Sequence record: PX418213.1 | Direction: 5' to 3' (one strand) | Length of the DNA stretch: 64,000 nt | Source: a phage | In this document: positions 28,661 through 40,396 of the stretch, in pieces | Numbering within the stretch: position 1 is the stretch's first letter | Layout: each line of letters begins with the position of its first letter | Position numbers and translations under genes: made by a program | The notes under the pieces: model-generated | What the model saw: the letters and a program-made list of their open reading frames with translations, nothing else | Told to the model about the DNA's origin: nothing | Database searches by the model: none

Positions 28661-29029
28661 AATTGAAAACTCGCAGGGTTAGCGAAACCATCCTCAATTA
28701 GCATGTTCTAGAATACTAATCAAGTTATCTCCTATTGCACGCAGCTCAAGACGAGTACGAATTTTCAATTGTGGCGGCTCTCCGAAACTCTTCTACTCTA
28801 GCCTTAGCAGCTTACTCCCGAACGCATGTCGGGAAAGTCTTACTAAGAGTATCAAATAGCACCGTTACACTTTGAGCCATAGGTGTATCAAGAAGCAGAA
28901 GGACTTGAACCTTCACGAGATAGACCATTTATCTCAGCCGCTTTATGAGGTATGTTGCGGGGAGTGGATGTTCCCCATAAACCTTTTAGGCAGCCCCGTC
29001 TACCGATTCCGGCATACTTCAAGATTTTT
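28661..29029 (-). ncRNA. non-coding stretch with isolated T-arm-like hairpin
   Basis: GAAGG-TTCAAGT-CCTTC hairpin near 28898-28914 with no matching acceptor stem; GGGGA..TCCCC hairpin at 28958-28975. Confidence 0.3.
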
Positions 29030-29203
29030 TTATAAACCAGCAGAAGCCTCATTTAGAGCATCAACAATAGCTTCACGTTGGGTCATTCCATACCCGGTGG
29101 AATCTAGGTGTGGCAAATAAGCCATCCATCCCTTATCTGTTTCATGAAGACATGCTTTAAATTTTGTACCATCCTTCATTGTTACAGTAACTGTTTTGCT
29201 CAT
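29030..29203 (-). CDS. small hypothetical protein (57 aa)
   Basis: hand-translated MSKTVTVTMKDGTKFKACLHE...; AAGGAAA RBS. Confidence 0.4.
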   Translation of the reverse strand: MSKTVTVTMKDGTKFKACLHETDKGWMAYLPHLDSTGYGMTQREAIVDALNEASAGL

Positions 29204-29223
29204 AAGATTTCCTTATAGTTAAT

Positions 29224-29313
29224 TGGCAGAAGATAATGGAGTCGAACCATCACCGTATCGCTACAGCGGGCTGGTTTTCAAGACCAGTTACGTACCACTA
29301 CGTCCTATCTTCT
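29224..29313 (-). tRNA. tRNA-Ser (TGA)
   Basis: 90 nt with long variable arm; anticodon arm CTGGT-CTTGAAA-ACCAG. Confidence 0.7.
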
Positions 29314-29326
29314 AGTATTTATTATA

Positions 29327-29674
29327 CTAATAGTCACTCGTACTAGTGAAGTTTTCTACTTTTCCACAAATTTTACAAGTCCTACGATGGTAGTAGGTAA
29401 TTTTTACTTTAGACCAGCCATCGTGATCATTACCTAGGTTTTCTGTTACTCCCCAAGTATGAGAACACTCATTTTCAATTTGCTTAGTAAGAGCGTTATA
29501 GCGAGTATAAAACTCCTCCTGAGCAATAGCAAACTCTTTCTGTAGTTTATCACGAGCAATAATAGCACGTTCCAGATATGTTAAATCTGGCATTCCAGCT
29601 TTTTCAGCAGCATCTATAATCTTATCTTCATCTAAAGATGCTAAAAACTCTAGAGCTTTATCTTTTGCTAACAT
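29327..29674 (-). CDS. hypothetical protein with C-terminal Cys pairs
   Basis: 115-aa ORF; ...CSHTWG...RRTCKICGK. Confidence 0.5.
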   Translation of the reverse strand: MLAKDKALEFLASLDEDKIIDAAEKAGMPDLTYLERAIIARDKLQKEFAIAQEEFYTRYNALTKQIENECSHTWGVTENLGNDHDGWSKVKITYYHRRTCKICGKVENFTSTSDY

Positions 29675-29693
29675 TATTATTACCTCAAGTGTT

Positions 29694-29784
29694 TGGCGGA
29701 AGAGGAGAGATTTGAACTCTCAAGCCGTTTTACCAGTCAGCCACTTTCCAAGCGGTTTTCGTCGCCAATTCGATTTGCTCTTCC
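29694..29784 (-). tRNA. tRNA-Ser (GGA), tentative
   Basis: 91 nt; acceptor GGAAGAG/CTCTTCC; T-arm GAGAG-TTCAAAT-CTCTC; long variable arm. Confidence 0.55.
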
Positions 29785-29804
29785 AATAATAAGATGATGC
29801 CTCT

Positions 29805-29893
29805 ATCACACCAGGCTGTTATGCCTCGCTGGGATTCGAACCCATTAAAACAGCTCAACCGAGATAGTAGGTTTAATTTACTCTGACCATCAA
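29805..29893 (-). ncRNA. degenerate tRNA-like element
   Basis: T-loop GGGTTCGAATCCC at 29831-29843 but no complementary acceptor strand or encoded CCA. Confidence 0.3.
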
Positions 29894-29896
29894 ATT

Positions 29897-29973
29897 TGGT
29901 GCGTGACAAGGGATTCGAACCCTCAAAACCCGACTTCTAAGGACGGTATGTATGCCAATTCCATCAATCACGC
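29897..29973 (-). tRNA. atypical tRNA, anticodon TAG (Leu codon) but class-I length
   Basis: 77 nt; acceptor GCGTGAT/GTCACGC; D-loop GAATTGG (Leu-like); loop CTTAGAA; no long variable arm. Confidence 0.45.
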
Positions 29974-29978
29974 GTATT

Positions 29979-30057
29979 TGGTGGAGAATAACGGAATCGA
30001 ACCGTTCTGATGTCCTCGGTGCAAGCGAGGTGTCCACTCCATGCAGACCCATTCCCC
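29979..30057 (-). tRNA. tRNA-Ala (TGC)
   Basis: G3:U70 pair in acceptor (GGGGAAT/ATTCTCC); anticodon arm CCTCG-CTTGCAC-CGAGG. Confidence 0.7.
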
Positions 30058-30295
30058 AAATTCTTTAGTTTACTAAGGCTATTAGCTCGGCGCAACTACA
30101 GCACCTTCGCTTCGAGCGGAAGGAACTGCGTCATCTCGCAAACCCAATACACTATTCAGTTGCCGCTGAATCTAGTGGACTAATCTAGAACTTCTCCCGA
30201 ATCGTAGGGATCGTGCTTTTTGGCAGCCAGTCCTAGGTCGAGCTAATACCTTAGTGAACTATGATGAGGATTTCTCCTCATCAATTTATATAAAT
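30058..30295 (-). ncRNA. structured leader / candidate ncRNA at 5' end of tRNA transcript
   Basis: no ORF; long-range complement AGGCTATTAGCTCG (30076-30089) with CGAGCTAATACCT (30239-30251); local hairpins. Confidence 0.35.
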
Positions 30296-30324
30296 ATTAT
30301 AACAAGAAATTAAGCATCAAGCAA
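30296..30324 (-). promoter_or_regulatory. T5-type promoter driving tRNA cluster segment
   Basis: TTGCTT, 17 bp, TATAAT; overlaps 3' end of CDS 30317-30685. Confidence 0.55.
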
Positions 30325-30685
30325 GTACATTTTTAGCGATTTCTTGCAGTTCCTTTACATCACGAACGTAAAGGTAATCAGAGCTTCCAGAGTGCATACT
30401 TTGCATAACTACACCTTCATCTGGTGCATTATCCTTCAGAGTAATTCCTAACCAGAACTCGGCAAAACTAGGTGTTATCTCACCTTGACTTGCCTTGAAT
30501 ACATCATATTCTGTAAGTTCTTGACCAGTAGATAATCCCAAATAGACAGAACTAAGATCTATCTCTTTATGAGACTCATAAAACTCCGTTAGATCTTTCT
30601 CCATATCCCAACCATGCTGTAACGCGAACTCCATTGCCACATGACTGAAATAACCTTGAATCTTGCTTGATAATTGCATTTGCAA
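30317..30685 (-). CDS. hypothetical protein
   Basis: 122-aa ORF starting with TTG. Confidence 0.5.
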   Translation of the reverse strand: MQMQLSSKIQGYFSHVAMEFALQHGWDMEKDLTEFYESHKEIDLSSVYLGLSTGQELTEYDVFKASQGEITPSFAEFWLGITLKDNAPDEGVVMQSMHSGSSDYLYVRDVKELQEIAKNVLA

Positions 30686-30704
30686 TTCCTTATTTTGAGT
30701 TAAT

Positions 30705-30778
30705 TGGTACTCGGTGATAGAATCGAACTATCGCAATCGCCGTGTAAAGACGGGGTTCTCCCATTAAACTAACCGAGC
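30705..30778 (-). tRNA. tRNA-Val (TAC), tentative
   Basis: acceptor GCTCGGT/ACCGAGT; T-arm GATAG-TTCGATT-CTATC; loop TTTACAC. Confidence 0.5.
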
Positions 30779-30782
30779 AATT

Positions 30783-30861
30783 TGGTAGATCGCCTGGGAC
30801 TCGAACCCAGAACCTTCCGATTAAAAGTCGGATGCTACTAAACCTATTGAGCTAGCGATCT
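30783..30861 (-). tRNA. tRNA-Lys (TTT)
   Basis: anticodon arm TCCGA-CTTTTAA-TCGGA; acceptor AGATCGC/GCGATCT. Confidence 0.7.
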
Positions 30862-30862
30862 A

Positions 30863-31030
30863 TTAGTAACCATTGTATACTTCTTTAATAGAGTGAATTT
30901 TCAAGTAAGGGTGATTAGTATTAAACTCTGCCATTACTTCATCCCAATTTTTACCGTAATGAGCGAGTAAGGATTTTGATGTATTCTTACCTAAACGTTT
31001 GTCACTTACTACTAATCGAAATACTTTCAT
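30863..31030 (-). CDS. small hypothetical protein (55 aa)
   Basis: hand-translated MKVFRLVVSDKRLGKN...; AGAGGA RBS. Confidence 0.4.
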   Translation of the reverse strand: MKVFRLVVSDKRLGKNTSKSLLAHYGKNWDEVMAEFNTNHPYLKIHSIKEVYNGY

Positions 31031-31050
31031 TTCGAAATCCTCTATTAAAA

Positions 31051-31128
31051 TGGAAGCGGGTGCAGGAATCGAACCTACCTCTTTCTAGCTTATGAGACTA
31101 GTGATCTCTACCAGAGATCTAACCCGCA
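31051..31128 (-). tRNA. tRNA, anticodon CAT (Met/fMet/Ile2)
   Basis: anticodon arm CTAGT-CTCATAA-GCTAG; T-arm GTAGG-TTCGATT-CCTGC; irregular acceptor end. Confidence 0.55.
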
Positions 31129-31134
31129 ATTGTT

Positions 31135-31212
31135 TGGTCTCCGTGGGAGGATTTGAACCCCCGACCCTATCGCCCCAAACGAAACGCTCTGGCCAAACTG
31201 AGCTACACGGAG
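31135..31212 (-). tRNA. tRNA-Pro (TGG)
   Basis: acceptor CTCCGTG/CACGGAG; D-arm GCTCAGTTTGGCCAGAGC; loop TTTGGGG. Confidence 0.6.
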
Positions 31213-31216
31213 AATA

Positions 31217-31375
31217 TTATTTCTTCAACCACAACAAAGATAAGCCCAACATACTAAAGCCGCTAACTAATCCGATACATTTTTCTTCTATAGTAAAAGT
31301 ATCTAGATTAAATGCTGTTATAGCTATTGGCATACACCATAATGCCATAAAAACTTGAGCTATCTTGTGTTTCAT
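31217..31375 (-). CDS. small membrane protein (52 aa)
   Basis: hand-translated MKHKIAQVFMALWCMPIAITAF...; GAAGGAAAG RBS; promoter directly upstream. Confidence 0.4.
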   Translation of the reverse strand: MKHKIAQVFMALWCMPIAITAFNLDTFTIEEKCIGLVSGFSMLGLSLLWLKK

Positions 31376-31407
31376 TTTGCTTTCCTTCTCTTCACTTTAT
31401 AAGATAT

Positions 31408-31436
31408 ATTATACAGAGAATTAAGCAGAATAGCAA
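31408..31436 (-). promoter_or_regulatory. T5-type strong sigma70 promoter
   Basis: TTGCTA, 17 bp, TATAAT. Confidence 0.6.
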
Positions 31437-31439
31437 ATG

Positions 31440-31828
31440 AATTTTTAATAAATTTACTTATTGTGTAGGCCACCTGGAGGCTACCAACCCCACGGCTGAC
31501 AAAGAAGTTTGCGAGACCTCTCTTAAATGCCAGAATAGACCCGCCGATCTATCGGAACCTACATAATAAGTAAACTTTATAGTGTCATTCTAGACAGGAC
31601 TCGAACCTGTTATCACTTGTGCGGACTTACGAGAACCATTCTTTCACTCGAATCGAACGAGCTTCTGCCCTAGCCAAGCTGGTTTCCCCATCAACCACGC
31701 TAGAATGTTTGATTGTTTTCAGTGCAAGAGTCCGAGTCTTGGACACGACCGCTTCGCAAGTACATAGGCAGCTTATCATGAGTCAGCACTTCCGAATTGC
31801 TAGCTCCGTGTTCTGCACTGAAATTTTG
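31440..31828 (-). ncRNA. structured non-coding region with tRNA-like elements
   Basis: no ORF; D-arm-like TGGTT-GATGGGGA-AACCA; two T-arm-like hairpins (CTCG-TTCGATT-CGAG and ACAGG-TTCGAGT-CCTGT); ATTCTAG/CTAGAAT complement about 120 nt apart; separate stem TTCAGTGCA/TGCACTGAA (31719-31727 with 31812-31820). Confidence 0.35.
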
Positions 31829-32176
31829 TTAATTTAATAGTAAAGTACGATCTACTTCACCATTAATTGTTCGGCACTCTTCTGGGATTGCTGGTGTAGC
31901 CTTATATTCCCACCATTCAGAACCGTCGTATTCACCACGTTCTAACCAAGTTCCGTCAGTAAACCATACATTACCATAAAGCAATTGCCCACCGAAACCC
32001 GAGTCATATTTAAAGTCTAGATTATTTAGAAAATCTTCAATATCTTTTTCTGTATAACCTACGGGCAATACCCAAACTTCTTTGTCTCCATAATAACCGA
32101 ATTCTATCTTAATACACTTAACTTCAGAATTAGTATTCTTTAGGGCAAGTAACAACTCTTCTTTAGCATTAATCAT
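31829..32176 (-). CDS. hypothetical protein
   Basis: 115-aa ORF. Confidence 0.5.
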   Translation of the reverse strand: MINAKEELLLALKNTNSEVKCIKIEFGYYGDKEVWVLPVGYTEKDIEDFLNNLDFKYDSGFGGQLLYGNVWFTDGTWLERGEYDGSEWWEYKATPAIPEECRTINGEVDRTLLLN

Positions 32177-32202
32177 AGCATATTTCTCGTGCTAGTTTAA
32201 TT

Positions 32203-32278
32203 TGGTACACCCACTAGGACTTGAACCTAGAACCCTCCGCTTAAGAGGCGGTAGCTCTAACCATTGAGCTATGGATGT
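32203..32278 (-). tRNA. tRNA, anticodon CTT (Lys-type), tentative
   Basis: acceptor ACATCCA/TGGGTGT; D-arm GCTCAATGGTTAGAGC; loop CTCTTAA. Confidence 0.5.
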
Positions 32279-32279
32279 A

Positions 32280-32438
32280 TTAAATTACTTTTTCCAGTTC
32301 ATCAGCTATGGCTTTGATTTTTTCAAAGTTTACATCACTTATAATGATACCTTCCAGTGACAGAGATATTCTAGCATTTTTCATAGCAGATTCTTTTATC
32401 TGCTCTATCTCTTCTGGAGTAAACTCCCTACGTTCCAT
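32280..32438 (-). CDS. small hypothetical protein (52 aa)
   Basis: hand-translated MERREFTPEEIEQIKESAMKNARISL...; AAGGTAGG RBS. Confidence 0.4.
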   Translation of the reverse strand: MERREFTPEEIEQIKESAMKNARISLSLEGIIISDVNFEKIKAIADELEKVI

Positions 32439-32455
32439 AGCTAACCTACCTTATT

Positions 32456-32532
32456 TGGCGCGACCGATGGGATTCGAACCCACATTCCCTCCCGTGACAG
32501 GGGAGTACCATTACCAAGCCAGCCCCGGTCGC
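32456..32532 (-). tRNA. tRNA-Asp (GTC)
   Basis: acceptor GCGACCG/CGGTCGC; anticodon arm CTCCC-CTGTCAC-GGGAG. Confidence 0.75.
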
Positions 32533-32541
32533 ATAATTCAT

Positions 32542-32727
32542 TTACTCAGCTTTGAGTTTTTCAATAGCTGCATTAAGTTCCTTAAGAAACTCTTTTCGTA
32601 CATTAAGACGATTAAGACTTACTAGTATATCATGTTTAAGTTCTTCGATGTATTTCTTCTCAACTTCAATATTGTTGAGAGTGCTATCACGATGAACCTC
32701 TAGCTGCGCAATTACATTCTTGGACAT
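32542..32727 (-). CDS. small coiled-coil protein
   Basis: 61-aa ORF. Confidence 0.4.
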   Translation of the reverse strand: MSKNVIAQLEVHRDSTLNNIEVEKKYIEELKHDILVSLNRLNVRKEFLKELNAAIEKLKAE

Positions 32728-32829
32728 GCTTGTTTCCTCAGTTATTAATGAAAATGGTATCTGTGGCTGAATTCGATGTCAGCAATGATAGCTGGTTGGC
32801 TACCGGTTTACTTAACTCTACACAGAATT

Positions 32830-32912
32830 TGGCGGGCCGTGTAGGATTCGAACCTACGTTGTCTTTCGACATGGATTAACAGTCCACCGCCAAACCGCTT
32901 GGCTAACGACCC
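32830..32912 (-). tRNA. tRNA, anticodon GTT (Asn-type) with 13-nt extra arm
   Basis: 83 nt; acceptor GGGTCGT/ACGGCCC; anticodon arm GTGGA-CTGTTAA-TCCAT; variable GTCGAAAGACAAC. Confidence 0.55.
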
Positions 32913-35296: not shown

Positions 35297-35374
35297 TGGT
35301 GGCTCCCCGAGGATTCGAACCTACGTACCTTCCGGTTATGAGCCGGGTGCTCATACCATATGAGCTTGAGAACC
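35297..35374 (-). tRNA. tRNA, anticodon CAT (Met/Ile2)
   Basis: acceptor GGTTCTC/GGGAGCC with G-U pairs; loop CTCATAA; T-stem has mismatches. Confidence 0.5.
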
Positions 35375-39599: not shown

Positions 39600-40396
39600 T
39601 CTAAGTATTTTTAAGAATTCTCATAAAAACTCTTAAAAATACAGACGATACCGGGAGAGTCATAAGTCTCACTCATTAAGTATTTCAAGACAAAATACGG
39701 TAACGTCTATTATTTTCCAGTTTAAGTCAGGGTGACTTAGTGGTTATGTCCTGCGGTATATTGAGGACTCGGTTAGGCTTGGGGTCATGACTTCCCACCT
39801 TTTGCTGCTACTCAACAGGAGTTATCGCGAATTACCTGTGCTATTGTGCACCATTAGTGACATCTCTCATGTCAGCATTTCCCACTTTGTGGATAGCTTG
39901 AAAAACTACTCCGATATGGAGAAAGAACTTCACTATCCTAGAATACCTTCTAAAGTTCTTCTTTAGCCTGGACATAGTTAAATCGTAATAAAACTATTCA
40001 GCAGACTGGTTGGTTAGTCTGGAACCAACTACCGCGTGGTTTAGGCAGTGCGCAACTAACCTCGGAAGCTTTTACGTTAAAAGCACCAGTTATCCAGTTC
40101 TTACCGACCGTAGGATTCGAACCTACATCTTCCACCAGTTACGACTTGATAATACCAATTATACTAGGACGGCAGTGTTACTACATAAGTGATTTCCACA
40201 CCCCACTATTTATAAATTAGAGAAGAGTTTAGGGGAGAGGTTTCAGACGCCTCATTTTACACGTTCTAGCCACTAACCGGGATTGCCGCCCCCTGTGTAC
40301 TAGTTTTACAACTAACCCACCGACTCTATTCAATGCGCTCCGCTTGGGATTCTGCACTCAGCGTAATCGGCTCGCTGTTCCCTAATTTATGAATAT
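39600..40396 (-). ncRNA. about 800-nt non-coding transcribed region with degenerate tRNA-like element
   Basis: no ORF of 60 aa or more; lies between promoter 40397-40425 and gene 39084-39584; T-loop GGTTCGAATCC at 40113-40123 with imperfect acceptor. Confidence 0.3.

What the first reader, a model, noticed from the sequence alone, without database searches (positions are those of the whole stretch)
30058..30295. Structured ~240-nt leader between a promoter and tRNA-Ala
There is no coding capacity. A 13-14-nt long-range complement (30076-30089 with 30239-30251) encloses several local hairpins directly downstream of promoter 30296-30324. This could be a processing substrate or small RNA released from the tRNA precursor.
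Basis: seen in the sequence. Interest (0 to 1): 0.5.

Follow-up and report, generated by a model that had tools for sequence, protein, structure and literature searches.

The report
Phage T5 stable RNA "RNA 2H" gene
The flagged stretch is the gene for RNA 2H, a 172-nucleotide stable RNA of unknown function already annotated in phage T5, and here it turns out to be a strongly conserved, highly folded RNA found across the wider T5 phage family.

Summary
The window is a T5-like phage tRNA region, with genes on the minus strand. Window 30077-30248 (-) is 96.5% identical over 172/172 nt to the "rna2H / RNA 2H, stable RNA with unknown functions" feature annotated in the T5, BF23 and Salmonella phage 5 records. 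It lies between early promoter P13b (30296-30324) and tRNA-Ala.

The annotated RNA ends fall in the middle of this helix, staggered by 2 bp. That is the geometry of an RNase III cut; the enzyme is inferred, not shown.

The released RNA folds as a four-way junction. A covariance model built here found diverged copies in Klebsiella (Sugarlandvirus), Proteus (Novosibvirus), Aeromonas (Shenzhenvirus) and Pectobacterium (My1) phages, all with the same 12 bp + bulge + ~10 bp closing helix. Sixteen of its 22 pairs show compensatory changes.

There is no Rfam match, no bacterial-genome hit and no conserved ORF. Published viable T5 deletions appear to cover the locus, so it looks dispensable in laboratory hosts. 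Function remains unknown; I infer an accessory, trans-acting, protein-binding RNA. The gene is already known; the family breadth and structural model were worked out here.

The parts
30296..30324 (-). Early sigma-70 promoter (P13b of T5/BF23): -35 TTGCTT 30324-30319, 17-nt spacer, -10 TATAAT 30301-30296. Transcription start inferred near 30289.
   Evidence: Sequence reading. Hexamers invariant in 9 phages. Annotated 'promoter P13b' in BF23, phage 5 and T5 st0 and as a T5-consensus promoter in AKFV33. BF23 P13b maps to window 30270-30345 by blastn.
30262..30283 (-). 5' leader hairpin UGAUGAGGAGAAAUCCUCAUCA (9 bp, 4-nt loop). It lies outside the mature RNA, with no U-tract after it on the RNA strand.
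   Evidence: Inverted repeat I4, 9/9; MFE. Conserved in most T5-type copies but replaced by a ~94-nt insertion in phage 5 and S114. A comparable leader hairpin is present in Pectobacterium phage My1.
30249..30260 (-). 5' strand of the distal 12-bp half of the closing helix (AGUUCACUAAGG). It is removed from the mature RNA; the annotated 5' end is created between G30249 and U30248.
   Evidence: Eight of the 12 distal pairs show compensatory changes across genera.
30077..30248 (-). Mature RNA 2H (172 nt): 5'-UAUUAGCUCG...CGAGCUAAUAGCC-3'.
   Evidence: 172/172 nt aligned at 96.5% identity to the BF23 rna2H feature. Features: NC_042564 4056-4227, AJ604531 4021-4192, AY692264 31811-31982. Covariance model R1 scores 235 bits.
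30239..30248 (-). P1 5' strand (UAUUAGCUCG), the proximal 10-bp half of the closing helix. It pairs with 30080-30089.
   Evidence: G:C to A:U compensatory change in GSW6; extensive covariation across genera.
30185..30236 (-). P2 arm: helix CUAGGACU (30229-30236) / AGUUCUAG (30185-30192). It encloses the A-rich segment GCUGCCAAAAAGCAC (30213-30227) and the variable hairpin P2b, UCCC (30207-30210) / GGGA (30195-30198).
   Evidence: RNAalifold and pair counts. P2b has 2 pairs with double changes and carries a 23-26-nt expansion in Epseptimavirus. P2 is invariant in Markadamsvirinae. The Klebsiella equivalent shows AGAGCC/GGCUCU versus AGAGUC/GACUCU.
30178..30184 (-). Junction J2/3, AUUAGUC; nearly invariant in T5-type copies (one A-to-G variant in AKFV33).
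   Evidence: The same heptamer occurs in Aeromonas phage AhP_Mru1, but there it forms one strand of a covarying hairpin.
30150..30177 (-). P3 hairpin CACUA-GA-UUCAG[CGGCAA]CUGAA-UAGUG.
   Evidence: stem varies only by an A:U to G:U change in two copies within Markadamsvirinae. In other genera the stem differs but the YGGY loop is kept: Klebsiella ACGC[CUGGUAA]GCGU, Proteus GGAU/GGGU[U(U)GGCG]AUCC/ACCC, Aeromonas CUCUG[UUGGCG]CAGAG.
30140..30149 (-). Junction J3/4, UAUUGGGUUU (UAUYGGGUUU in the T5-type consensus).
   Evidence: Related UAUYGUAUUU in Klebsiella phages and UAUAUUGUAGG in Aeromonas phages.
30090..30139 (-). P4 long irregular hairpin. Its base, GCG (30137-30139) / CGC (30090-30092), abuts P1 with no linker.
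   Evidence: Seven pairs plus the base pair C:G to U:A show double changes between the Tequintavirus type and the Epseptimavirus/Klebsiella type. Independent MFE folds of both types give the same arm.
30067..30089 (-). 3' strand of the closing helix: CGAGCUAAUA (30080-30089, P1), bulged G 30079, CCUUAGUAAACU (30067-30078, distal half). The annotated 3' end lies after C30077.
29979..30057 (-). tRNA-Ala(UGC), the first tRNA of the same transcription unit, 19 nt downstream of the RNA 2H 3' end.
   Evidence: ARAGORN; Rfam tRNA 36.3 bits.

Best explanation
**What it is.** The interval holds the ortholog of phage T5 gene rna2H, which encodes the 172-nt stable RNA 'RNA 2H'.

**How it is made.**
- It is transcribed by host RNA polymerase from the strong early promoter P13b, as the first element of a polycistronic RNA 2H - tRNA-Ala - tRNA-Leu - ... 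precursor.
- Sequences flanking the RNA pair into a 22-bp helix: a 12-bp distal half, one bulged purine on the 3' strand, and a 10-bp proximal half.
- A double-strand cut in the middle releases the RNA with a 10-bp terminal stem and a GCC 3' overhang. The cut falls between G30249 and U30248 on the 5' strand and after C30077 on the 3' strand, staggered by 2 bp.
- I infer host RNase III is the enzyme, as for rRNA precursors.
- The cut leaves a tRNA precursor with a short 5' leader for RNase P.

**What the product looks like.** The mature RNA folds into a four-way junction: P1; a branched P2 arm carrying an A-rich GCCAAAAA segment; a P3 hairpin with a YGGY loop; and a long P4 hairpin stacked directly on P1.

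**What it does.** This is inferred only. It acts in trans as a structured, probably protein-binding, accessory RNA that helps the phage under some conditions but is not needed in laboratory E. coli.

**Shown versus inferred.**
- Shown here: homology, synteny, fold, covariation, distribution, and absence from known RNA families.
- Taken from database annotation: that it is a stable RNA, and where its ends lie.
- Inferred: RNase III as the enzyme, and action in trans.
For: **Identity**
- The closest genomes are T5-like phages.
- The locus matches the BF23 rna2H feature at 96.5% over 172/172 nt.
- rna2H is annotated in BF23, phage 5 and T5 st0 between P13b and tRNA-Ala.

**Structure**
- z = -6.0 for the interval.
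- Two diverged variants fold independently into the same architecture.
- On 33 T5-type sequences, 99.8% of cells pair against 28-44% for slid controls, and 10-11 pairs show double changes.

**Processing helix**
- A 22-bp helix is present.
- Across five phage groups, 97.5% of cells pair and 16 of 22 pairs show double changes. Eight of those lie in the 12-bp distal half that is absent from the mature RNA. Slid controls pair 26-49%.
- The same 12 bp + bulged purine + ~10 bp design is seen in Klebsiella, Proteus, Aeromonas and Pectobacterium phages.
- The annotated ends sit at the helix centre with a 2-bp stagger.

**Strand**
- Promoters lie directly upstream in the T5, Sugarland, AhP_Mru1 and My1 types.
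- The element is co-oriented with the tRNAs.
- Many conserved G-U pairs would be A-C mismatches on the other strand.

**Selection on the body**
- The 5' 108 nt are 94-98% identical between phages whose upstream ORF is 74-85% identical.
- Motifs are shared across genera.

**Accessory role**
- Viable T5 deletions d29191-32442 and d30661-38625 (PMC11464382) appear to cover the T5 locus at 31729-31900.
Against: - No experiment was available here. That the RNA is stable, and where its ends lie, rest on GenBank annotations whose primary papers I could not find in the library.
- RNase III dependence is inferred from geometry only.
- The 3' tail R-C-C next to a stem that stacks on P4 is also what an RNase P substrate looks like.
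- The mature 172-nt RNA alone is only moderately more stable than shuffles (z = -2.25).
- The P2 pairs never vary within Markadamsvirinae apart from one U:A to U:G change, and P3 varies only by an A:U to G:U change, so their support comes from analogous helices in other genera that I aligned by eye.
- Nothing found here points to a specific target or partner, so the trans-acting role is a default inference.
- Deletion mutants grow normally enough to be propagated, so any function is conditional.
- The coordinate system of the published deletions is assumed, not verified, to match AY587007.
Confidence: 0.72

Rival explanations
1. The element works only in cis. It is a processing cassette whose job is to supply a double-strand cleavage site that removes the triphosphorylated leader and starts maturation of the downstream tRNAs. 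On this view the excised 'RNA 2H' is a long-lived by-product with no function of its own.
For: - It sits at the head of a tRNA transcription unit, right after a promoter, in the T5, Klebsiella, Aeromonas and Pectobacterium phage types.
- The best-supported feature is the processing helix itself.
- The locus is dispensable in lab hosts.
Against: - A cleavage site needs only the 22-bp helix, yet the enclosed body is the most conserved sequence in the neighbourhood: 94-98% against 74-85% for the adjacent ORF and 91% for tRNA-Ala.
- The body keeps specific motifs (GCCAARA, YGGY loop) in genera where everything else has diverged.
- In EPS7, phage 3-29 and the Proteus phages it is followed by an ORF, not a tRNA.
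- Other promoters in the same tRNA region (P13a, P11) are annotated without such a cassette immediately downstream.
Confidence: 0.15
2. The RNA is a tRNA-like molecule matured by the tRNA pathway. RNase P makes the 5' end at U30248, and exonucleases trim the 3' end back to an R-C-C tail, possibly completed to RCCA by the CCA-adding enzyme. On this view the distal helix is incidental.
For: - The junction resembles a cloverleaf in topology: 2 nt between P1 and P2, no linker between P4 and P1, and four arms.
- The unpaired purine followed by CC at the 3' end looks like a discriminator base plus CC. It is GCC in T5, Klebsiella and My1, and ACC in Aeromonas.
- Neighbouring T5 RNAs 1, 2 and 3 are annotated as tRNA-like.
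Against: - ARAGORN and the Rfam tRNA, tmRNA and tRNA-like models do not detect it, even at E <= 10.
- I saw no T-arm or canonical T-loop.
- The T5 annotators class it as a 'stable RNA', not 'tRNA-like'.
- The Proteus tail is GCU.
- The 12-bp leader-trailer helix is preserved by 8 compensatory pairs. From general knowledge, RNase P does not need such pairing and is usually hindered by it.
Confidence: 0.1
3. The signal is a DNA-level or protein-coding feature, not an RNA gene. Candidates are a small transposable element with terminal inverted repeats, a protein-binding palindrome, or the antisense small ORFs annotated over it in several genomes.
For: - There are 22-bp terminal inverted repeats at the DNA level.
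- The plus strand folds as well as the minus strand (z = -7.7).
- Antisense 'hypothetical protein' CDSs are annotated over the homologues in Sugarland, SEL21, Stubb and AhP_Mru1.
Against: - There is a single copy per genome at a syntenic position.
- One-sided substitutions in the T5-type helices almost all give G-U pairs, and conserved G-U pairs abound. That fits RNA pairing on the minus strand, not DNA repeats.
- Internal helices covary too.
- Indels of 23-26 nt, and wholesale replacement of P4, rule out a conserved reading frame on either strand.
- The antisense ORFs are not conserved between genera.
- T5 workers annotate a stable RNA.
Confidence: 0.03

Closest known systems
Phage T5 / BF23 / Salmonella phage 5 gene rna2H ('RNA 2H', stable RNA with unknown functions; GenBank AY692264, NC_042564, AJ604531)
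   Same: Orthologous. It is 96.5% identical over the full 172 nt to the BF23 feature, sits in the same position between promoter P13b and tRNA-Ala, and has the same ends when mapped.
   Different: Nothing essential. In this window a 122-aa ORF (30317-30685) lies between tRNA-Val and the promoter; it is absent from T5 and BF23. The downstream tRNA-Ala is also a different sequence type from the BF23 one.
RNase III processing stems of bacterial rRNA precursors and phage T7 early transcripts (from general knowledge)
   Same: Sequences flanking a structured RNA pair into a helix of about two turns. The ends of the released RNA lie within it, staggered by 2 bp with a 3' overhang. The helix is kept by compensatory change.
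   Different: Cleavage by RNase III has not been shown for this RNA. The helix carries a conserved single bulged purine exactly at the cut. The released product is a 172-nt RNA of unknown function, not an rRNA or mRNA.
Phage T4 stable RNAs C and D (species 1 and 2, rnaC/rnaD) in the T4 tRNA cluster (from memory, not tested here)
   Same: Small, stable, non-tRNA RNAs that are encoded inside a lytic phage's tRNA gene cluster, co-transcribed with tRNAs, dispensable, and of unknown function decades after discovery.
   Different: No sequence or model comparison was made here. They are not in the Rfam results, and nothing indicates homology.
tRNA and tRNA-like RNAs (RNase P substrates; T5 RNA1/RNA2/RNA3 annotated as tRNA-like)
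   Same: Four-armed junction with a 2-nt P1-P2 linker and no P4-P1 linker. It has an R-C-C 3' tail, a hairpin loop containing GG, and a location among tRNA genes.
   Different: It is not detected by ARAGORN or any Rfam tRNA-clan model. The arms are much longer, there is no T-arm, P1 is 10 bp, and its leader and trailer are base-paired.

Membership tests
T5-family rna2H (RNA 2H) gene | Sequence homology to the annotated rna2H feature over its full length | tested here: met
   blastn against BF23 rna2H gives 172/172 nt at 96.5%, window 30248-30077. Model R1 scores 235 bits.
T5-family rna2H (RNA 2H) gene | Position directly downstream of early promoter P13b and upstream of tRNA-Ala, on the tRNA strand | tested here: met
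   Promoter 30296-30324, RNA 30077-30248, tRNA-Ala 29979-30057, all on the minus strand. Same order in BF23, phage 5 and T5 st0.
T5-family rna2H (RNA 2H) gene | A discrete stable ~172-nt RNA accumulates in infected cells | not testable with these tools
   Known only from the words 'stable RNA' in the GenBank features. The primary papers were not found in the library.
RNase III substrate | Double-stranded helix of about two turns (>= ~20 bp) | tested here: met
   22 bp plus one bulged nucleotide. 97.5% of cells paired across five phage groups, with 16 of 22 pairs showing compensatory changes.
RNase III substrate | Cuts on both strands staggered to leave a 2-nt 3' overhang | tested here: inconclusive
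   The annotated ends (5' U30248, 3' C30077) are offset by the two G:C pairs 30249-30250 / 30077-30078 plus the bulged G. This is consistent, but the ends come from annotation, not from data I could inspect.
RNase III substrate | Processing abolished in rnc mutants, or reproduced with purified enzyme | not testable with these tools
   Requires an experiment.
tRNA / tRNA-like (RNase P substrate) | Cloverleaf with D- and T-arms detectable by tRNA models | tested here: not met
   ARAGORN finds nothing in 30058-30295. No Rfam tRNA-clan hit at E <= 10 on the T5 type, nor at E <= 5 on the Klebsiella and Proteus types.
tRNA / tRNA-like (RNase P substrate) | Unpaired discriminator plus CCA at the 3' end of a 7-bp acceptor stem | tested here: inconclusive
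   The tail is GCC (T5, Klebsiella, My1), ACC (Aeromonas) or GCU (Proteus). The next templated base is U, and the stem is 9-10 bp.
Any curated Rfam family (riboswitches, ribozymes, 6S, Y RNA/YrlA, tmRNA, phage RNAs) | Covariance-model score at or near the family's gathering threshold | tested here: not met
   No hit at gathering thresholds in the window. Within the interval at E <= 10 there are only snoRNA-model noise hits at about 19-21 bits against thresholds of 44-45. Nothing for the Klebsiella or Proteus homologues.
Intrinsic terminator / attenuator leader | GC-rich hairpin followed by a U-tract on the transcribed strand | tested here: not met
   On the minus strand the leader hairpin (30262-30283) is followed by AUAGUUCAC. 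The only terminator-like call is on the plus strand.
Miniature inverted-repeat transposable element | Multiple dispersed copies with terminal inverted repeats | tested here: not met
   One copy in the 64-kb window and one per homologous locus. No hits in 185,579 bacterial and archaeal genomes or in E. coli genomes. G-U wobble pairs are conserved.

The most novel reading that the evidence does not exclude
RNA 2H could be a family-wide effector RNA of T5-like phages (Demerecviridae). On this reading it is cut out by RNase III and folds so that a GG-containing hairpin loop docks on a GCC/A-rich segment, forming a tRNA-elbow-like module. It would then act as a decoy or hijacker for a host tRNA- or RNA-binding factor. 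Candidates are a tRNA-targeting defence nuclease, a tRNA-modification or processing enzyme, or a ribosome-associated factor. That would be a non-tRNA counterpart to the anti-defence tRNAs encoded next to it. What I saw is compatible with this: conserved motifs, a GGC:GCC to GGU:ACC change between T5 and Klebsiella phages, dispensability in defence-poor lab strains, and placement at the head of tRNA clusters. None of it tests the idea.
Probability: 0.12. Interest if true: 0.75.

Novelty: already known. Interest (0 to 1): 0.42.

Why it matters
The gene itself is not new. T5 workers annotated RNA 2H about two decades ago, and those records still say 'unknown functions'.

What this re-examination adds may be useful:
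- **It is not a T5 oddity.** It is a structured RNA kept across at least six genera of T5-like phages infecting Escherichia, Salmonella, Klebsiella, Proteus, Aeromonas and Pectobacterium.
- **It has a fixed excision helix and a body under strong purifying selection.**
- **It has no Rfam family.**
- **It is mis-annotated.** Several genomes cover it with antisense 'hypothetical protein' calls.

T5's tRNA region has recently been shown to encode counter-defence tRNAs, against PARIS and retron Eco7 (PMC11464382, PMC10644984). A conserved, abundant, dispensable RNA in the same operons is therefore a reasonable candidate for a conditional host-interaction function. The structural model, the predicted RNase III sites and the existing deletion mutants make that directly testable.

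If it is only a processing by-product, the finding is ordinary.

Tried and rejected
- **Rfam.** Searches at gathering and permissive thresholds on the window, and on the Klebsiella and Proteus homologues, found no family.
- **Host origin or host target by similarity.** blastn of the element against 5,426 E. coli genomes gave no match at E <= 10. An exact-core scan of 185,579 bacterial and archaeal genomes gave 0 hits.
- **Metagenome scan with a 20-mer.** This returned ten more T5-type copies and one chance match inside a GC-rich coding region (L032), which I discarded.
- **RNAalifold's 3-bp mini-hairpin in J3/4.** I rejected it in favour of a P4 base GCG/CGC, which covaries to GUG/CAC.
- **The small P2a hairpin (GCU/AGC) of the T5 type.** It is not conserved in Klebsiella phages, so I do not count it as established.
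- **A loop-loop pseudoknot between the P3 loop (GGY) and the GCC of the A-rich segment.** One compensatory change supports it (T5 GGC:GCC; Klebsiella GGU:ACC). One Proteus phage (ACC with GGC) and one metagenome variant (GAC) do not fit. Left as a hypothesis.
- **The ~94-nt insertion that replaces the leader hairpin in phage 5 and S114.** It is not significantly structured (z = -0.55) and is not a second copy of the RNA.
- **Paralogy with the other T5 stable RNAs.** Model R1 finds no second copy in the window.
- **Literature.** Four library searches did not turn up the primary description of RNA 2H or any functional or transcriptomic study of it. The DRT9 paper (PMC12483538) concerns another operon of the region (P11, gp58) and is irrelevant.
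- **IMG/VR scans.** They added few sequences.
Full report
**1. Context**

ARAGORN finds 24 tRNA genes on the minus strand between 26.3 and 39.1 kb of the window; Rfam's tRNA model also lists 24, partly different ones. A 1.15-kb query around the finding matches 740 phage records. The best are T5-like phages: Escherichia phages HASG4 and EASG3 at 98% over the full length, and many Tequintavirus and Epseptimavirus genomes. The window is therefore the tRNA gene region of a T5-like phage (Demerecviridae, Markadamsvirinae).

**2. The observation**

- **The helix.** On the minus strand, 30239-30248 pairs perfectly with 30080-30089, and 30249-30261 pairs 12/13 with 30066-30078. Together they form a ~22-bp helix interrupted only by a bulged G at 30079.
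- **The fold.** The 238-nt interval folds at -87 kcal/mol. Dinucleotide shuffles give -58.9 +/- 4.7, so z = -6.0.
- **The promoter.** It reads TTGCTT (30324-30319), 17 nt, TATAAT (30301-30296). Both hexamers are invariant in nine phages. It is annotated as P13b in the BF23, phage 5 and T5 st0 records. The generic scanner misses it because the T5 -35 consensus TTGCTT matches TTGACA at only three positions.
- **Coding capacity.** No ORF of 60 aa or more overlaps the interval.

**3. What it is**

Three GenBank records annotate the orthologous stretch as misc_RNA 'rna2H', product 'RNA 2H', 172 nt, between promoter P13b and tRNA-Ala. They are the BF23 tRNA gene region (NC_042564), the phage 5 tRNA gene region (AJ604531) and T5 strain st0 (AY692264).

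blastn of the BF23 feature against the window aligns 172/172 nt at 96.5% to 30248-30077 on the minus strand. The window also carries the other annotated T5-family stable RNAs: RNA3, RNA2, RNA IV, RNA1, RNA I and RNA III.

So the finding is a known, annotated, functionally uncharacterised RNA gene. I could not find its primary description, or any functional study, in the paper library.

**4. Anatomy**

Reading 5' to 3' on the minus strand:
- Inferred transcription start near 30289.
- Leader hairpin 30283-30262.
- Distal helix strand AGUUCACUAAGG (30260-30249).
- Mature RNA 30248-30077.
- The rest of the distal helix 3' strand, running to 30067.
- A 9-nt spacer.
- tRNA-Ala from 30057.

The mature RNA folds as a four-way junction:
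- **P1:** 30239-30248 with 30080-30089, 10 bp.
- **Linker:** 2 nt.
- **P2:** CUAGGACU/AGUUCUAG. It encloses the A-rich segment GCUGCCAAAAAGCAC and the variable hairpin P2b.
- **J2/3:** AUUAGUC.
- **P3:** CACUA-GA-UUCAG[CGGCAA]CUGAA-UAGUG.
- **J3/4:** UAUUGGGUUU (UAUYGGGUUU in the consensus).
- **P4:** a long hairpin whose base (GCG/CGC) abuts P1 with no linker.

A Tequintavirus-type copy (the window) and an Epseptimavirus-type copy (PYC03) differ by a 23-nt P2b expansion and a completely different P4 sequence. Folded separately, they give the same architecture.

**5. Covariation within T5-type phages**

I collected 33 distinct sequences from GenBank phages, IMG/VR and metagenomes.
- 99.8% of pair cells are standard pairs. 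With the 3' partner slid by 1-3 columns the figure is 28-44%.
- 10-11 pairs show changes on both sides.
- Support is concentrated in P2b, P4 and one pair of P1.
- The RNAalifold mini-hairpin in J3/4 is better replaced by a P4 base that covaries from GCG/CGC to GUG/CAC.
- P2 and P3 vary only by isolated one-sided changes that keep G-U pairing, so they are neither supported nor contradicted at this level.

*Caveat:* the structure was derived from these sequences, and the alignment was fitted to the model.

**6. The family is wider than annotated**

A covariance model built from the T5-type alignment (R1), run without filters, finds diverged homologues in four further groups.

| Phage (genus or subfamily) | Score | E-value | Setting |
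|---|---|---|---|
| Klebsiella phage Sugarland (Sugarlandvirus) | 65.5 bits | 2e-18 | Directly between a TTGCTA-N17-TATAAT promoter and tRNA-Ala |
| IMG/VR contig L055 (Klebsiella type) | 69.4 bits | 1.3e-19 | Another Klebsiella-type copy |
| Proteus phage VTCCBPA139 (Novosibvirus) | 31.5 bits | 1e-8 | Followed by an ORF; relatives found by blastn |
| Aeromonas phage AhP_Mru1 (Shenzhenvirus) | 31.3 bits | 4e-8 | After a promoter, ahead of the first tRNA of the cluster; relatives found by blastn |
| Pectobacterium phage My1 (Mccorquodalevirinae) | 40.1 bits | 1e-10 | After a TTGCTT-N17-TATAAT promoter and a leader hairpin, ahead of an unannotated tRNA |

Each folds far better than shuffles (z = -3.6 to -7.3).

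All share the same closing design: a 12-bp distal helix, one bulged purine on the 3' strand, then a 9-10-bp proximal helix. On a hand-assembled alignment of the two strands from 11 representatives of five groups, 97.5% of cells pair and 16 of 22 pairs show compensatory changes. Eight of those lie in the distal half. Slid controls pair only 26-49%.

Interior motifs recur across genera:
- A GCCAA(A/G)A segment.
- A hairpin with a YGGY loop: CGGCAA, CUGGUAA, U(U)GGCG or AAUGGCUC.
- A related sequence after that hairpin in the T5, Klebsiella and Aeromonas types: UAGUGUAUYG, GAGUGUAUYG and UAGUAUAUUG respectively.

Helix-level substitution supports arms P2 and P3. Klebsiella phages show AGAGCC/GGCUCU versus AGAGUC/GACUCU. 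Proteus phages show GGAU/AUCC versus GGGU/ACCC.

The interior architecture is not identical in all genera, and I did not resolve a single family-wide fold.

**7. How it is made**

The annotated ends fall at the centre of the 22-bp helix: 12 bp distal and 10 bp proximal. The 5' end lies after G30249 and the 3' end after C30077. The ends are therefore offset by the two G:C pairs next to the bulged G, leaving a 3' overhang.

A two-turn helix cut on both strands with a 2-bp stagger is the signature of RNase III (established enzymology; not tested here). The distal half is discarded, yet it is preserved by compensatory change in five genera. That is hard to explain unless the duplex itself is the processing signal.

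The alternative is RNase P plus 3' trimming. Three things suggest it: the R-C-C tail, the direct P4-P1 junction and the four-armed topology. Three things argue against it: the paired leader and trailer, the lack of any tRNA-model signal, and the GCU tail in Proteus phages.

I put RNase III at about 0.6-0.65 and the tRNA pathway at about 0.1. The remainder is other or combined routes.

**8. Which strand**

The minus strand is the RNA strand, for three reasons.
- Promoters lie immediately upstream in four lineages.
- The element is co-oriented with the tRNAs.
- The helices contain many conserved G-U pairs, and the one-sided substitutions in the T5-type helices almost all produce G-U. These would be A-C mismatches in the complementary RNA.

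Thermodynamic folding alone does not discriminate: the plus strand gives z = -7.7.

**9. What it does**

This is unknown. The evidence only constrains it.
- **The body is under stronger constraint than its neighbours.** The 5' 108 nt are 94-98% identical between phages whose upstream ORF is 74-85% identical and whose tRNA-Ala is 91% identical.
- **It is not tied to a particular downstream gene.** It is followed by tRNA-Ala in most phages and by an ORF in EPS7, 3-29 and the Proteus phages.
- **It looks dispensable in the lab, and it is not the PARIS suppressor.**
  - In T5 (AY587007 sequence) it lies at 31729-31900.
  - The viable deletions T5-123 (d29191-32442) and T5Mos (d30661-38625) cover that position.
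  - Only the fragment 31885-32870, with tRNA-Pro, fMet, Lys and Val, rescued PARIS sensitivity. That fragment overlaps just 16 nt of the RNA (PMC11464382).
  - I assume, but did not verify, that the paper uses the same coordinate system. The positions of the four tRNAs fit.
- **It has no detectable relative elsewhere.** Nothing turned up in Rfam, in E. coli genomes or in 185,579 prokaryotic genomes.

My best inference is an abundant early RNA with a compact tertiary fold that binds a host or phage protein, and that matters only in some hosts or conditions. A purely cis-acting processing role is the main rival, at about 0.15.

**10. Verdict**

The feature is already known as T5 RNA 2H, so novelty is low.

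Moderate interest remains for four reasons. It is an orphan structured RNA of a model phage. Here it is shown to be conserved, with a fixed excision helix, in every Demerecviridae group where I looked. It is absent from Rfam. It is repeatedly mis-annotated as antisense ORFs.

Noticed in passing
window 28662-32827 (-): The other stable RNA genes annotated in the BF23/T5 tRNA region are all present in the window: rnaIII 28662-28767, rnaI 28772-28878, rna1 28886-29023, rnaIV 31462-31564, rna2 31584-31707 and rna3 32755-32827 (86-100% identity to the BF23 features). None has an Rfam family apart from tRNA-model noise. Their functions are also annotated as unknown.
   Followed up: partly
window 29694-29784 (-): This stretch is 100% identical to BF23 'tRNAS2' (tRNA-Ser, 91 nt), yet ARAGORN does not call it and the Rfam tRNA model misses it at gathering threshold. 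The only hit is a 19.7-bit tRNA-Sec match. The T5 record AY587007 flags the equivalent as a pseudo-tRNA.
   Followed up: partly
window 29820-29890 (-): Between tRNA-Leu and tRNAS2 there is a sequence with a perfect T-arm (GGGTTCGAATCCC) and a 3' acceptor-like strand, but I saw no matching 5' half. It looks like a tRNA remnant. ARAGORN and Rfam do not call it. T5 has an HNH endonuclease gene at about this position.
   Followed up: no
window 35300-35374 and 40102-40173 (-); 29224-29313 and 29979-30057 (-): The two tRNA finders disagree. Rfam reports tRNAs at 35300-35374 and 40102-40173 that ARAGORN does not list. ARAGORN's tRNA-Ser 29224-29313 and tRNA-Ala 29979-30057 are missing from the whole-window Rfam gathering list, although tRNA-Ala scores 36.3 bits when a short stretch is searched.
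   Followed up: no
L002:2546-2656 (Salmonella phage 5) and L008 (phage S114): In these two phages a ~94-nt insertion replaces the leader hairpin between promoter P13b and the distal helix of RNA 2H. It is not significantly structured (z = -0.55) and does not match model R1. Its origin is unknown.
   Followed up: partly
L042:1258-1446, L045:127-312, L047:151-294, L029:4806-5082: Homologues of RNA 2H in Klebsiella phages Sugarland and SEL21, Proteus phage Stubb and Aeromonas phage AhP_Mru1 are overlapped by antisense 'hypothetical protein' CDS annotations. These are probably spurious gene calls over a structured RNA.
   Followed up: partly
L026 (T5 AY587007, record 31400-32600): The tRNA features of this T5 record are shifted by 68 nt relative to where ARAGORN finds the genes in the same sequence. 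For example, tRNA-Ala is annotated at 31567-31641 but found at 31635-31709.
   Followed up: yes
window 30317-30685 (-): A 122-aa ORF lies between tRNA-Val and the RNA 2H promoter, and its stop codon lies inside the -35 region. It is present in AKFV33 (orf063), EPS7 and the Epseptimavirus phages but absent from T5 and BF23, where tRNA-Val directly precedes the promoter. A related 354-nt ORF is annotated in Pectobacterium phage My1 (My1_064).
   Followed up: no
window 29979-30057 (-); L001:2768-2841; L004:677-835; L008:793-945: Two different tRNA-Ala(UGC) sequence types follow RNA 2H. The window type begins GGGGAAUGGGUCUGC...; the BF23/T5 type begins GGGGAUAUAGUUUAAUGG.... Phages atrejo and S114 each carry two tRNA-Ala genes in tandem.
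   Followed up: no
L057:5280-5365 (-) (Pectobacterium phage My1, record ~29279-29364): Immediately downstream of the My1 RNA 2H homologue there is a tRNA-like sequence (GGGGUUAUGCUGG...GAGUUCGAGUCUCCCUAGCCCCACCA) that is not annotated in the record.
   Followed up: no
L043:2190-2330 (Proteus phage VTCCBPA139): The ~140 nt upstream of the Proteus RNA 2H homologue are unusually GC-rich for the region. They end in a terminator-like hairpin (GUGGG...CCCAC followed by CUUUAAUU). This could be another structured RNA or the end of a transcription unit.
   Followed up: no
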